From the human T2T-CHM13v2.0 reference genome, Homo sapiens, in contig CP068257.2 in assembly GCA_009914755.4 (NCBI GenBank), positions 6,208,001-6,272,000 on the forward strand: a DNA stretch of 64,000 bases, read 5' to 3'. The position numbers and the translations under genes are program-made. Under the pieces are notes generated by a model, which saw nothing but the letters and a program-made list of their open reading frames with translations, had not been told where the DNA came from and searched no databases. Positions 42,844 to 45,659 of this stretch are shown here, piece after piece (the stretch's first letter is position 1; every line of letters starts with the position of its first letter).

Positions 42844-43219
42844 TGCAGAATACTTACATCTCCTGGATGATCAGTTCAGAAATATGTCACAATGACCCCT
42901 CCCTGCGGAGCCCAGAGAAGATTTGCATCATTTGGGTGATCAGTGCAGAGATATTTCACAATGTCACCTGCAAAAAAAGCCTGGAAATGATTTATGTCAC
43001 CTCGGTGATCAGTGCATAGGTATGTCAGAAATCCCCAGTAGGCTGAACCTAGACAAGGGTTACATCACTTAGGTGAACAGTGTAGAGATATGTGAAAATT
43101 CCCGTGTAGACAGAGCCTAGACAAGAGTTACATCACCTAGTGATCAGTGCAGGGATAAGTCGTAAAGTCTCCTGTAGGCAGAGGGTAGAAAAGTGTTTCC
43201 TCCTTGGGGTGATCAGTGC
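42844..43219 (+). repeat. Beta-satellite, + orientation; short block ending at the inversion breakpoint
   Basis: 68-bp monomers. The last complete + motif is GGTGATCAGTGC at 43208-43219. Confidence 0.85.
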
Positions 43220-43728
43220 CTACTGGAGACATTGTGACATATCTGCGCACTGATCACCCAGGTGATGTCACTTTTGTCAAGGATATGGCTACAGGGGCAC
43301 TGTGACATTTCACTGCACTGATCACACACCTGATGTAACACTTGTCTAGGCTCTGGCTACAGGGGGCTTGTGACACATCTCTGCACTGATCCCCCAGGTG
43401 ATGTAATCCTTGTCTAGGCTCTGCAAAAAGGGGTCATTGTGACATAACTCAGCACTGATCTCCCAGGTGATGGGACAGTTGTTTAGGCTCTGCCTACAGG
43501 GGCATTATGACATATCTCTGCAGTGATGTAACTCTTGTCTATATCTGCCTACTGGTGGCATTGTGGCATATTTCTGCAATGATCACCCAGGTGATGGACT
43601 CTTGTCTTGGATCTGCCTATGGGGTCACAGTGACATATCTCTGCACTGATGATCACCCGGGTTATATAACTGTTGTCTAGGCCTGCCTATGGGGACATTG
43701 TGAGTTATCTCTGCACTGATCACGCAGG
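43220..43728 (-). repeat. Beta-satellite, inverted orientation (start of the minus-oriented half of the window)
   Basis: From 43220 the monomers read CTACTGGAGACATTGTGACATATCTGCGCACTGATCACCCAGGTGATG..., the reverse-complement type. Confidence 0.85.
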
Positions 43729-43741
43729 AGATGTGACTCTT
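43729..43741. repeat. Target-site duplication, left copy (AGATGTGACTCTT), of the Alu insertion
   Basis: The same 13-mer recurs at 44000-44012, immediately beyond the other end of the Alu. Confidence 0.75.
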
Positions 43742-43998
43742 TTTTTTTTTTTTTGAGACGGAGTCTCGCTCTGTCGCCCAGGCTGGAGTGCAGTGGCGGG
43801 ATCTCGGCTCACTGCAAGCTCCGCCTCCCGGGTTCACGCCATTCTCCTGCCTCAGCCTCCCAAGTAGCTGGGACTACAGGCGCCCGCCACTACGCCCGGC
43901 TAATTTTTTTGTATTTTTAGTAGAGACGGGGTTTCACCGTTTTAGCCGGGATGGTCTCGATCTCTTGACCTCGTGATCCGCCCGCCTTGGCCTCCCAA
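43742..43998 (-). mobile_element. AluY SINE, minus strand, 5'-truncated by about 36 bp, with a 13-nt poly(A) tail seen as a T run on the top strand
   Basis: T13 GAGACGGAGTCTCGCTCTGTCGCCCAGGCTGGAGTGCAGTGGCGGGATCTCGGCTCACTGCAAGCTCCGCCTCCCGGGTTCACGCCATTCTCCTGCCTCAGCCTCCCAAGTAGCTGGGACTACAGGCGCCCGCCACTACGCCCGGCTAATTTTTTTGTATTTTTAGTAGAGACGGGGTTTCACCGTTTTAGCCGGGATGGTCTCGATCTC... is the reverse complement of the Alu consensus. The AluY-diagnostic CCGTTTTAGCCGGGATGG is present and many CpGs are retained. The sequence stops at ...GGCCTCCCAAG without the first ~36 nt of Alu. Confidence 0.93.
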
Positions 43999-43999
43999 G

Positions 44000-44012
44000 A
44001 GATGTGACTCTT
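44000..44012. repeat. Target-site duplication, right copy (AGATGTGACTCTT)
   Basis: Direct repeat of 43729-43741 flanking the Alu. It lies inside a beta-satellite monomer. Confidence 0.75.
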
Positions 44013-45659
44013 GTCTAAGCTCTGCCAAGAGGGACACTGGGACATATCTCTGCACTGATCGCTGAGGTGAGGTAAAACTTGTCTAGGCTTTGCCTACAGT
44101 GGGATTTATGACACATCTCTGCACTGATCACCCACGTGATGTAACTCTTGTCTAGTATCTGCTTACAGGGGATATTGTGAGATATCTCTGCACTGATCAC
44201 CCACATGATGTAACTCTTTTCTAGGCTCGGCCTACAGGGGCTTTGTGACATATCCCTGCACTGATCACCCAGATGATGTAACTCTTGTCTAGGCTCCACC
44301 TACAGAGGGTATTGTAACTTATCTCTGCACTGATCACCCAGGTGATGTAACATGTATCTAGGCTATGCCTACAGGGGCTTTTTGACATAGCTCTGCACAG
44401 ATCACCTAGGTTATGTAACTCTTTTCCACTCTCTGCCTACAGAGGGCATTGTGAAATATCTCTGCACTGATCACCCAGGTGATGGAAGTCTTGTCTAGGC
44501 TCTGTCTATGGGGGCATTCTGTTAAATATCTGCCCTGATCACCCAGGTGATGTAACTCTATTCTAGGCTCTGTCTACAGGGATTTTTGTGACATATCACT
44601 GCACTGATCACCTAGGTGATGTAAGCCTTGTATGAGCTTTGCCTATAGAGGCTTTGTGACATATCTATGCCCTGATCTCTGAGGTTATGCAACTCTTGTC
44701 TAGGCACTGCCTGCAGGGGACATTGGTACATATCTCTGCTCAGATCACCCATATTATGGACACTTGTCTTAGATCTGCCTACATGGACATTGTGACACAT
44801 CTCTGAACTGATCAACCAAGTGATGAAACTCTTGTCTAGGCTCTGCCTACAGGGGCTTTGTGACACTTCTCTGCACTGATCACCCTGGGGAGGGAACTCT
44901 TGCTACGCTCTGCCTATAGGAGGCTTTATGACTTATACCTGCACTGATAACCAAGGTGATATAACACTTGTCTAGGCTCTGCCTACAGTGGAATTCTCAC
45001 ATATCTCTGCACTGATCACCTGGGTGATGTAACTCCTGTCTAGGTTCAGCCTACAGGAACGTTTTGACATATCTCTGCACTGATCACCCAGGTGGTGTAA
45101 CCCTTGTCTAAGCTCTGCCTACAGGGGCATTGTGACAGATCTCTCCACTGCTCACTCAGGTGATGTAACAATTGTCTGGGCTTTGCCTACAGGGGGCTTT
45201 GTGATATACATTTCCACTGATCAAACAGGTGATGTAACCCTTGTCAAAGTTCTGCTTACAGGGGCTTTGTGACATATCTCTGCACTGATCACCCCAGGGA
45301 GGAAACACTTTTCTACACTCTGCCTATGGGAGGCTTTATGACTATTCCCTGCACTGATCACTAGGTGATGTAACAGCTGTCTAAGCTCTGTCTACAAGGA
45401 AAATTTCACATATCTCTAAACTGATCACGTAAGTGATGTAACCCTTGTCTAGGATCAGCCTACTGGGGATTTCTGACATACCTATGCACTGATCACCGAG
45501 GTGACGTAAATCATTTCCAGGCTTTTTGTACAGGGGACATTGTGATATATCTCTGTGCTGATCACCCAAATGATGCAAATCTTCTCTAGGCTCCGCAGGG
45601 AGGGGGCATTGTGACATATTTCTGAACTGATCATTCAGGAAATGTAACTATTCTCCAGG
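44013..45659 (-). repeat. Beta-satellite array, inverted orientation
   Basis: 68-bp monomers. The last monomers before unit G (...CATTGTGACATATTTCTGAACTGATCATTCAGGAAATGTAACTATTCTCCAGGC) are the reverse complement of the pLAM-like tail seen after + units. Confidence 0.9.

What the first reader, a model, noticed from the sequence alone, without database searches (positions are those of the whole stretch)
42844..45659. Head-to-head orientation switch of the entire composite array at ~43220
Up to 43219 the beta-satellite reads GATCAGTGCAGAG... and units C-F are on the + strand. From 43220 the satellite reads CTCTGCACTGATCAC... and units G-I are on the - strand. The two halves face each other with their 3' (pLAM-like) ends toward the junction. 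The arms are asymmetric: 376 bp of satellite between unit F and the breakpoint, against ~2.4 kb (including the AluY) on the other side. The junction ...GGTGATCAGTGC|CTACTGGAGACATTG... lies at the near-palindromic Sau3A/TGATCA core of a monomer. Large inverted repeats of this kind can form hairpins or cruciforms and are instability and recombination hot spots. Alternatively the join is an assembly artefact in collapsed satellite.
Basis: seen in the sequence. Interest (0 to 1): 0.6.

Follow-up and report, generated by a model that had tools for sequence, protein, structure and literature searches.

The report
Strand switch in beta-satellite/D4Z4-like array
The repeat array really does flip orientation at position 43219/43220, but this is an old, diverged rearrangement scar of a kind already counted by the hundred in human beta-satellite arrays. 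It is one of three such flips in this window and does not look like an active fragile palindrome.

Summary
Beta-satellite polarity and the orientation of the 3.1-kb D4Z4-like (DUX4 pseudogene) units switch from + to - exactly at 43219|43220, with the 3' ends of units F and G converging on the join.

- **Not the whole array.** There are two more switches, at 6655|6656 and 12358|12359.
- **Not centred on the TGATCA palindrome.** The + arm stops at monomer phase 9 and the - arm at phase 35, with 3 bp (TGC) of microhomology.
- **Both arms are truncated.** Seven to eight paralogous copies in the window run straight through each break point.
- **The arms are diverged.** They are 85-88% identical in register with a 2062-bp spacer, and 73% complementary next to the join. 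F and G are no closer to each other than any other pair of units, so this is not a young mirror duplication and the arms are not being homogenised.

The 258-nt AluY with its 14-bp target-site duplication is an unrelated later insertion.

The region is a beta-composite (LSAU-BSAT) array. Published T2T analyses report more than 200 to hundreds of such strand switches, described as randomly placed by-products of array expansion.

An assembly artefact is unlikely on sequence grounds but cannot be tested here.

One oddity remains: on their minus-satellite sides, all three junctions fall within about 135 bp of a single position in the composite period.

The parts
39901..42843 (+). Unit F: a D4Z4-like (LSau) unit carrying a DUX4-like double-homeobox pseudogene, with its 3' end towards the junction
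   Evidence: BLAST with unit F against the window. GC-rich core at 40270-42780. Pfam Homeodomain in ORF 40635-41582. No intact DUX4-length ORF.
42844..43219 (+). 376 bp (5.4 monomers) of + oriented 68-bp beta-satellite. This is the proximal 3' flank of unit F, cut short at the junction.
   Evidence: TRF period 68. In-register homologues 3' of units B, D and G continue past the equivalent point.
43217..43219 (.). The join itself (43219|43220). TGC is shared by both arms, giving 3 bp of microhomology. There is no filler sequence.
   Evidence: The TRF arrays overlap at 43217-43219. BLAST blocks from the left end at 43219 and those from the right start at 43217-43220. Alignment A1. Monomer phases 9 and 35.
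43220..43727 (-). - oriented beta-satellite: the distal part of unit G's 3' flank, also cut short at the junction
   Evidence: In-register homologues at 85-87% identity at 29273-29796, 31566-32093, 51907-52430 and 10201-10724. Eight paralogous copies run through the equivalent of 43217 without a break.
43728..44012 (-). AluY insertion, 5'-truncated by 38 nt, with its poly(A) read as the T-run 43741-43755. It is flanked by the 14-bp target-site duplication GAGATGTGACTCTT (43728-43741 and 43999-44012).
   Evidence: Sequence. Absent from all paralogous flanks.
44013..45500 (-). - oriented beta-satellite: the proximal 3' flank of unit G. The stretch 45282-45659 is the in-register counterpart of 42844-43219.
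   Evidence: 86-90% in-register identity to the flanks of units B, C, D, E, H and I, against about 77% out of register. Inverted repeat I1, 42479-43219 against 45282-46022, 88%.
45501..48613 (-). Unit G: a D4Z4-like unit carrying a DUX4-like pseudogene, with its 3' end towards the junction
   Evidence: ORF 46802-47572 (-) matches the DUX4 structure 6e8c at E = 2e-61 and Pfam Homeodomain at 3.6e-20. A 99.5%-identical copy occurs in an independent Logan contig from run SRR12151496.
37639..50883 (.). Longest contiguous in-register inverted repeat around the join: arms 37639-43219 and 45282-50883, 85.4% identical, with a 2062-bp spacer at 43220-45281
   Evidence: Self-BLAST; the repeat finder.
6651..6661 (.). 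Second strand switch, J1 (6655|6656). The DUX4-like homeobox 2 of truncated unit A (...CAGATCTGG) is joined to - satellite (CTACAGGGG...), with TCTGG as microhomology.
12355..12362 (.). Third strand switch, J2 (12358|12359). - satellite (...TTACAGGGACAT) is joined to the 5'-truncated + unit B (GGAGAGCG...).

Best explanation
**What the window is.** It is a stretch of a primate, almost certainly human, 'beta-composite' (LSAU-BSAT) array. Blocks of 68-bp beta-satellite alternate with diverged ~3.1-kb D4Z4-like units that carry dead DUX4 copies, in a basic period of about 6.4 kb.

**What the junction is.** Position 43219|43220 is a strand-switch junction inside that array. The proximal 3' satellite flank of one unit is cut 376 bp from the unit. 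It is joined, in opposite orientation, to the distal 3' flank of another unit, cut about 2.0 kb from that unit (Alu excluded).

**How it most likely formed (inferred).** The two arms are broken at non-equivalent positions. They share only 3 bp, and there is no filler. The join was therefore most likely made by a non-homologous process: either end-joining of two breaks, or a microhomology-primed template switch. It was not made by recombination between inverted copies or by a symmetric fold-back on the TGATCA palindrome.

**Age and activity.** The event is either old or involved copies that had already diverged. Units on the two sides are as different from each other (about 14%) as any two units on the same side. 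The junction now persists as an inert scar in heterochromatin. Any hairpin potential is confined to single-stranded DNA and is weakened by 12-27% mismatch. The AluY 515 bp away is a later, unrelated retrotransposition.

**Shown:** the anatomy, the truncation of both arms, the microhomology, the divergence and the identity of the repeats.
**Inferred:** the joining mechanism, the age, and the lack of present-day activity.
For: - **Polarity and unit orientation:**
- **Sharp two-sided truncation relative to 7-8 intact paralogues:**
- **Monomer phases 9 and 35, with TGC overlap:**
- **No close F-G relationship.** The unit phylogeny is star-like, with K2P distance about 0.16 (0.11 without CpG sites). 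F-G identity is 86.6% against a background of 85-87%. Same- and opposite-orientation pairs are indistinguishable, and there are no high-identity conversion tracts.
- **Little perfect homology:** the longest perfect inverted match is 58-80 bp.
- **Repeat identity:** Homeodomain and DUX4 hits; 68-bp monomers.
- **Literature.**
  - Beta-composite arrays are beta-satellite interspersed with LSau elements. [quoted passage not shown]
  - There are 319 copies of a ~3.1-kb 5'-truncated D4Z4-pLAM unit in LSAU-BSAT regions (PMC10620044).
  - Intra-array identity is 80-95% in centromere-transition LSAU composites (10.1101/2021.07.12.451456).
- **Density:** three switches in 64 kb is in line with about 200 per 7.7 Mb.
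Against: - No reciprocal partner junction of the predicted form (- satellite ending at the equivalent of 45281, joined to + satellite starting at the equivalent of 12274) exists in the window. A simple two-break inversion is therefore not demonstrated.
- The minus-satellite sides of all three junctions cluster within about 135 bp of one position of the composite period. Independent random events do not predict this.
- The junction could not be confirmed in any independent data set.
- Single-stranded DNA folding does predict a strong imperfect hairpin centred on the join, so some structure-related behaviour cannot be excluded.
Confidence: 0.75

Rival explanations
1. **Ancient fold-back inverted duplication (breakage-fusion-bridge type).** A break in the satellite about 2 kb distal to a unit was followed by fold-back priming 376 bp from the unit. 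This would give two mirror-image arms around a single-copy spacer of about 1.8 kb (43220-45281, before the Alu arrived). Later divergence and indels erased the mirror symmetry.
For: The anatomy is what a fold-back produces. The arms match in register up to 43219 and 45282, with an asymmetric 2062-bp spacer that continues one arm, and there is short microhomology at the join.
Against: F and G are not each other's closest relatives (F-G 86.6%, F-D 86.4%, G-E 87.0%). Bootstrap support is 0.37 for F+G against 0.60 for D+F. The pairs E/H and D/I are not mirrored either. Unit spacing is not mirrored: F-E is 5.3 kb and G-H is 8.4 kb. If this happened, it was as old as the array amplification itself and has left no specific trace.
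Confidence: 0.12
2. **Assembly or sequencing artefact.** This would be a false join of two real satellite-bearing sequences, or a chimeric or fold-back read carried into the assembly.
For: The junction was not found in any independent data available here. Satellite-rich acrocentric or pericentromeric DNA is among the hardest to assemble. The source and quality of the assembly are unknown.
Against: - Overlap-based misassembly needs long near-identical sequence. Here the arms beside the join are only 73% complementary, in-register paralogues differ by 10-15%, and 81-91% of 31-mers are unique in the window.
- Missing-adapter or fold-back reads give perfect palindromes with no spacer. These arms are 86-88% identical and offset by 2 kb.
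- Two further switches with different anatomy lie in the same window.
- Such switches are reported in validated T2T assemblies and across hundreds of haplotypes.
Confidence: 0.07
3. **Active structure-forming inverted repeat.** The join extrudes a cruciform or forms hairpins during replication, and acts as a present-day hot spot for breakage and recombination.
For: The predicted single-stranded DNA hairpin is -191.8 kcal/mol, z = -15.3, with a loop of about 27 nt and a perfect 13-bp stem at its base (43207-43219 with 43247-43259). The same-orientation control gives z = -1.4. Inverted repeats 75% identical and up to 30 kb apart can drive rearrangement within long single-stranded DNA in yeast (PMC10164571).
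Against: - Local complementarity is 73%, and the in-register arms are 85-88% identical with a 2-kb spacer.
- In duplex DNA, instability is lost at 75% identity and falls steeply with spacer length.
- The longest perfect inverted tract is 58-80 bp. From general knowledge, this is below the roughly 200 bp of perfect homology needed for efficient mammalian homologous recombination.
- There is no sign of arm-to-arm gene conversion.
- The structure has survived long enough to accumulate about 14% divergence around it and an AluY that is 2% diverged from its consensus.
Confidence: 0.08
4. **One complex replication-based event made all three switches.** The copying strand alternated between a + oriented and a - oriented template. 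Each time it returned to a template, it landed slightly behind the point where it had left.
For: - If the + block 12359-43219 is removed, the - satellite is continuous with an 81-84-bp overlap (12275-12358 against 43217-43300).
- If the - block 6656-12358 is removed, units A and B join into one unit with an overlap of about 930 bp (5722-6655 against 12356-13290).
- The - sides of J1, J2 and J3 map to the equivalents of 43353, 43300 and 43220. For three random points on a 6.4-kb period the chance of this is about 3 x (133/6441)^2 = 0.001, though this test was chosen after seeing the data.
Against: The overlapping copies are no more alike than other paralogues: 93.8% for the 81 bp where other copies reach 92-99%, and 86.6% for the 930 bp. 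Units A and F are not sisters. The model does not explain why the first entry point (43353 equivalent) lies beside the later ones. The clustering was noticed only after looking.
Confidence: 0.15

Closest known systems
Strand switches (inversion breakpoints) in human beta-satellite / beta-composite (LSAU-BSAT) arrays of chr1 and the acrocentric short arms, as catalogued in T2T-CHM13 and in population-scale assemblies
   Same: The repeat content matches: 68-bp beta-satellite interspersed with ~3.1-kb diverged D4Z4/LSau units at 85-87% identity. Polarity changes abruptly inside one array. The density is comparable: 3 per 64 kb here against about 200 per 7.7 Mb genome-wide.
   Different: No difference in kind. 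This report adds base-level anatomy for one junction (phases, 3-bp microhomology, truncation of both arms). It also notes that the three junctions in this window share one position of the composite period, whereas the 2026 survey describes switches as randomly distributed.
The single inverted D4Z4 unit (DUX4c) proximal to the 4q35 D4Z4 array, and its chr22 paralogue
   Same: A D4Z4-family unit lying in the opposite orientation to its neighbours (PMC3488192; PMC10620044).
   Different: That case is one isolated inverted unit tens of kb from a homogeneous tandem array, in unique-sequence context next to FRG2. Here whole multi-unit blocks of a diverged beta-composite array face each other, and the break lies inside the satellite.
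Near-perfect large palindromes and fragile inverted repeats (Y-chromosome ampliconic palindromes, PATRRs, closely spaced identical Alu pairs)
   Same: Two long arms in inverted orientation around a spacer, with a predicted hairpin in single-stranded DNA.
   Different: From general knowledge, the arms of those structures are about 99-100% identical. They are kept so by arm-to-arm gene conversion, or are AT-rich and have no spacer. Here identity is 85-88% (73% locally), the spacer is 2 kb, and there is no evidence of conversion.
4qA distal end: last D4Z4 unit - pLAM - 6.2 kb of beta-satellite
   Same: Each unit here ends in a DUX4 3' region that runs directly into + oriented beta-satellite, as at 4qA (PMC3488192).
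   Different: The units are about 15% diverged pseudogenes, are interspersed singly rather than arrayed, and occur in both orientations. From my recollection of the 4qA sequence, not checked with a tool, the position of the ATTAAA poly(A) signal reads ATGTCACAA in unit F.

Membership tests
Beta-composite (LSAU-BSAT) satellite array | Tandem 68-bp beta-satellite monomers with the Sau3A (GATC) core | tested here: met
   TRF period 68. The 68-bp consensus GATCAGTGCAGAGATATGTCACAATGCCCCTGTAGGCAGAGCCTAGACAAGAGTTACATCACCTGGGT is identical for the + and - halves.
Beta-composite (LSAU-BSAT) satellite array | Interspersed GC-rich LSau / D4Z4-like units carrying DUX4-type double homeobox sequence | tested here: met
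   Nine units at about 66% GC. Pfam Homeodomain, two stretches. DUX4 structures 6e8c and 5z6z at E = 2e-61 and 2.6e-60.
Beta-composite (LSAU-BSAT) satellite array | Unit of the common ~3.1-kb 5'-truncated D4Z4-pLAM type, with 80-95% identity within the array | tested here: met
   The units align over about 3.1 kb at 84.5-88% pairwise identity. Compared with PMC10620044 and 10.1101/2021.07.12.451456. No direct alignment to a 4q D4Z4 reference was possible.
Beta-composite (LSAU-BSAT) satellite array | Location on an acrocentric short arm or in the chr1 pericentromere of a human genome | not testable with these tools
   No human genome is searchable here. The only indirect support is a 99.5%-identical copy of unit G in Logan run SRR12151496.
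Satellite strand switch / inversion breakpoint | Abrupt reversal of monomer polarity within one continuous array, with no intervening foreign sequence | tested here: met
Simple two-break (balanced) inversion | A reciprocal junction that joins the two missing continuations | tested here: inconclusive
   Neither J1 nor J2 has the predicted composition. Undoing the inversion of 12359-43219 or of 6656-12358 would require deletions of 1.6-2 kb at both ends. The partner could lie beyond position 64000.
Fold-back / mirror inverted duplication | The arms are each other's closest relatives and are collinear in mirror image | tested here: not met
   Star phylogeny; F-G identity 86.6% is at background level; unit spacing is not mirrored.
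Fragile cruciform-forming palindrome (PATRR / identical Alu inverted-repeat type) | Near-perfect arm identity with a spacer of no more than tens of bp | tested here: not met
   With a 27-nt loop the arms are only 73% complementary. The 85-88% arms have a 2062-nt spacer.
Technical fold-back chimera (missing-adapter or duplex read) | The arms are identical reverse complements meeting at the join | tested here: not met
   The arms flanking the join are 73% complementary and are broken at different monomer phases.

The most novel reading that the evidence does not exclude
The three strand switches in this window may not be independent. Their minus-satellite sides fall at the equivalents of 43220, 43300 and 43353 within one ~6.4-kb composite period. 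J1 and J3 sit at the identical monomer phase, two monomers apart. Each oppositely oriented block is flanked by direct overlaps, of 81-84 bp and about 930 bp.

This pattern would fit one of two things. The first is a single multi-step template-switching event between two oppositely oriented templates. The second is a preferred break or entry site at particular variant monomers of the composite flank. Either would mean that polarity switches in beta-composite arrays are made by a specific replicative mechanism, not by random breaks.
Probability: 0.2. Interest if true: 0.35.

Novelty: already known. Interest (0 to 1): 0.15.

Why it matters
It matters little on its own. Strand switches in beta-satellite and LSAU-BSAT arrays are already catalogued genome-wide and across hundreds of haplotypes.

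The base-level anatomy may be useful as a worked example of how such switches are built: non-equivalent truncation of both arms, 3-5 bp of microhomology, and no mirror symmetry.

The junction 26-mer could serve as a unique marker for this array in pangenome comparisons.

The window's D4Z4-like units also show how diverged DUX4 pseudogenes complicate FSHD-targeted assays.

If the clustering of junctions at one position of the composite period held up genome-wide, it would point to a specific mechanism for array growth by inverted templated insertion.

Tried and rejected
1. **Independent confirmation of the junction.**
   - Exact look-ups of the two 37-aa ORFs that span the join found nothing. 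The same was true for the nearest flanking ORFs.
   - The 26-mer GGTGATCAGTGCCTACTGGAGACATT was absent from metagenome contigs and genome contigs. These collections are not human, so the negatives say nothing.
   - Only the unit G ORF was found, in a 1283-bp Logan contig that does not reach the junction.
2. **Mirror (palindromic) duplication.** Rejected by the identity matrix, neighbour-joining bootstraps and sliding-window identity.
3. **J1 and J3 as paralogous copies of one ancestral junction.** Units A and F are not sister units; D+F has 0.86 bootstrap support instead.
4. **The 81-bp overlap across the + block as a datable target duplication.** It is 93.8% identical, but unrelated paralogues are 92-99% identical over the same stretch, so it is not diagnostic.
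5. **Pairing J2 with J3, or J1 with J2, as a clean inversion.** Neither pairing fits.
6. **Rfam scan of the whole window.** No family reached its gathering score.
7. **Not run.** I ran no further search on the 37-aa junction peptides, because the chance that such short ORFs were ever called as genes is very low.
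Full report

Yes. Counting the beta-satellite core in its two orientations per kilobase gives only GATCAGTG between 12.4 kb and 43219. From 43220 to the end of the window it gives only CACTGATC. AT skew changes sign at the same place.

Tandem Repeats Finder reports a 68-bp array at 42854-43219. It then reports arrays at 43217-43741 and 43994-45668 whose consensus is the reverse complement of the first. 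The first two overlap by the three bases TGC.

BLAST of unit F against the window finds nine ~3.1-kb GC-rich units:
- A: 5260-6655, truncated, +
- B: 12369-14994, +
- C: 18192-21295, +
- D: 24633-27706, +
- E: 34628-37728, +
- F: 39901-43000, +
- G: 45501-48613, -
- H: 53860-56957, -
- I: 60694-63797, -

A self-comparison restricted to alignments of at least 83% identity shows many in-register blocks stopping exactly at 43219 or starting at 43217-43220. The quoted junction string occurs once. The stated arm lengths, 376 bp and about 2.4 kb, are correct.

The description needs three corrections:
- The satellite is not uniformly + up to 43219. The stretch 6656-12358 is -, so the window holds three switches: J1 at 6655|6656, J2 at 12358|12359 and J3 at 43219|43220.
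- With the 3' ends facing each other, the arrangement is convergent, not head-to-head.
- Only one side of the join lies beside a TGATCA core (section 3).

**2. What the sequence is.**

The GC-rich units encode decayed DUX4. ORF 46802-47572 (-) in unit G has two Pfam Homeodomain stretches (E = 3.6e-20). It aligns to the DUX4 double-homeodomain crystal structure 6e8c at E = 2e-61. Unit F carries the same frame on the + strand. No unit keeps an ORF longer than 364 aa, so all are pseudogenes.

The units are 84.5-88% identical to one another in a star-like pattern. About 2 kb of satellite on the 3' side of each unit is also conserved in register, at 86-90% against about 77% out of register. The basic composite period is therefore about 6.4 kb.

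This is the beta-composite, or LSAU-BSAT, array of the literature:
- It is beta-satellite 'interspersed with LSau elements' (10.1101/2021.07.12.452052).
- It holds 319 copies of a ~3.1-kb 5'-truncated D4Z4-pLAM unit on the acrocentric short arms and in the chr1 pericentromere (PMC10620044).
- Intra-array identity is 80-95% (10.1101/2021.07.12.451456).

A copy of unit G that is 99.5% identical occurs in an independent Logan contig from run SRR12151496.

**3. Anatomy of the junction.**

I number the monomer from the G of GATCAGTG. On that numbering the + arm ends at phase 9 (...GGTGATCAGTGC). Read in its own forward sense, the - arm ends at phase 35 (...CCAGTAG), or at phase 38 if the shared TGC/GCA is assigned to it.

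The join is therefore 26-29 nt away from symmetry. It is not centred on the TGATCA palindrome. It has 3 bp of microhomology and no inserted bases.

Both arms are truncated relative to their paralogues:
- The 3' flanks of units B, D, G and others continue in register past the equivalent of 43219.
- Eight copies run straight through the equivalent of 43217. These lie at 1839, 10200, 12275, 23256, 29799, 32096 and 51906, plus a partial copy at the window start.

In register, 42479-43219 pairs with 45282-46022 at 88%. The longest contiguous arms, 37639-43219 and 45282-50883, are 85.4% identical with a 2062-bp spacer.

The Alu has a 14-bp target-site duplication and is missing from every paralogous flank. 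It is a later, unrelated insertion 515 bp from the join.

**4. How it arose, and whether it does anything.**

Non-equivalent break points with 3 bp of overlap point to end-joining or a microhomology-primed template switch. This step is inferred. Recombination between inverted copies would leave no visible break. A fold-back on the TGATCA palindrome would be symmetric.

A fold-back inverted duplication would fit the arm-spacer-arm anatomy. It predicts that F and G, E and H, and D and I are mirror pairs, and they are not:
- F-G identity is 86.6%, against a background of 85-87%.
- Bootstrap support for F+G is 0.37.
- Unit spacings are not mirrored.

Same-orientation and opposite-orientation unit pairs are equally diverged, and no high-identity tract links the arms. 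So there is no arm-to-arm homogenisation.

On instability, the evidence is mixed but mostly negative:
- Folded as single-stranded DNA, the 741 nt around the join give a long imperfect hairpin of -191.8 kcal/mol (z = -15.3). Same-orientation satellite of the same length gives -89.2 (z = -1.4).
- That stem is only 73% complementary.
- The better arms are 2 kb apart.
- The longest perfect inverted tract is 58-80 bp.
- In yeast assays, inverted-repeat instability in duplex DNA disappears at 75% identity and falls about 300-fold between 12-bp and 100-bp spacers. Only within long single-stranded DNA do such diverged, distant repeats interact (PMC10164571).

The structure has outlasted about 14% divergence of its surroundings and an AluY that is 2% diverged from its consensus.

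I conclude that it is an inert scar, with confidence 0.75.

**5. Is it an artefact?**

I could not test this with reads, and the searches open to me were uninformative. The sequence argues against it:
- This is not collapsed satellite. 81-91% of 31-mers near the join are unique in the window, and paralogues differ by 10-15%.
- An overlap assembler has nothing near-identical to mis-join.
- Fold-back read artefacts give perfect palindromes with no spacer, which this is not.

**6. Comparison with what is known.**

[quoted passage not shown] With 7.7 Mb of beta-satellite, that is about one per 38 kb. Three in 64 kb is ordinary.

A 2026 survey of 8000 centromeres finds hundreds of beta-satellite strand switches. 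Their number scales with array length (r = 0.90). [quoted passage not shown]

The finding is therefore an instance of a known phenomenon.

**7. What remains unexplained.**

On their minus-satellite sides, the three junctions map to the equivalents of 43353 (J1), 43300 (J2) and 43220 (J3). All lie within about 135 bp of one position of a 6.4-kb period. J1 and J3 share the identical monomer phase (TG[GC]|CTAC).

Two further regularities stand out:
- Removing the + block 12359-43219 leaves the - satellite continuous, with an 81-84-bp overlap.
- Removing the - block 6656-12358 joins units A and B into one unit, with an overlap of about 930 bp.

For three random points, the chance of such clustering is about 0.001. 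This test was chosen after seeing the data. The overlapping copies are no more similar than other paralogues, and units A and F are not sisters.

A single multi-step template-switch event, or a preferred break site, would explain the pattern. I give this 0.15-0.2.

**8. Verdict.**

The kind of feature is already known, and its interest is low.

Noticed in passing
window 6655|6656 and 12358|12359: There are two further strand switches. J1 joins the DUX4-like homeobox 2 of truncated unit A directly to - satellite, with 5 bp of microhomology (TCTGG). J2 joins - satellite to the 5'-truncated unit B. The 5.7-kb - block between them contains no D4Z4-like unit.
   Followed up: partly
window 6656, 12358 and 43220 (equivalents 43353, 43300 and 43220 of one composite period): The minus-satellite sides of all three junctions lie within about 135 bp of the same position of the ~6.4-kb composite period. 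J1 and J3 share the identical monomer phase. Each oppositely oriented block is flanked by direct overlaps, of 81-84 bp and about 930 bp.
   Followed up: partly
window 43217-43420 and its paralogues (e.g. 31893-32096, 1636-1839, 10200-10400): This stretch of satellite, with variant monomers such as GTCACTTTTGTCAAGGATATGG, is 90-99% identical among paralogous copies. The flanks as a whole are about 86% identical. The copy at 32017-32096 differs from 43217-43296 by 1 base in 80.
   Followed up: no
window 30300-31641 and 11171-11178: In two composite periods the D4Z4-like unit has been deleted. The D-E interval (10 kb) carries a second, unit-less copy of the proximal 3' flank. In the - block, the equivalent of 44522 is joined directly to the equivalent of 40098.
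   Followed up: partly
window 42997-43076 and 53784-53863: The longest perfect inverted match between the + and - blocks is 80 bp. It lies in the proximal 3' flanks of units F and H and stands out against about 86% average identity. It might be a short conversion tract.
   Followed up: no
window 42860-42900: The start of the 'satellite' 3' of unit F resembles the 4qA pLAM poly(A)-signal region. Where 4qA has ATTAAA, unit F reads ATGTCACAA, so there is no DUX4 poly(A) signal. This comparison rests on my recollection of the 4qA sequence and was not checked with a tool.
   Followed up: no
L001 (Logan SRR12151496 contig, 1283 bp) against window 46333-47598: An independent sequencing run contains a copy of the unit G DUX4-like ORF that is 99.5% identical, with an identical 256-aa product. 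This could be an allelic copy or a copy on another acrocentric chromosome, and it may be transcribed.
   Followed up: partly
window 40270-42780 and 45743-48308 against the satellite blocks: The D4Z4-like cores keep a CpG observed/expected ratio of 0.50-0.55 at 65-66% GC. The surrounding beta-satellite is down to 0.09-0.17.
   Followed up: no
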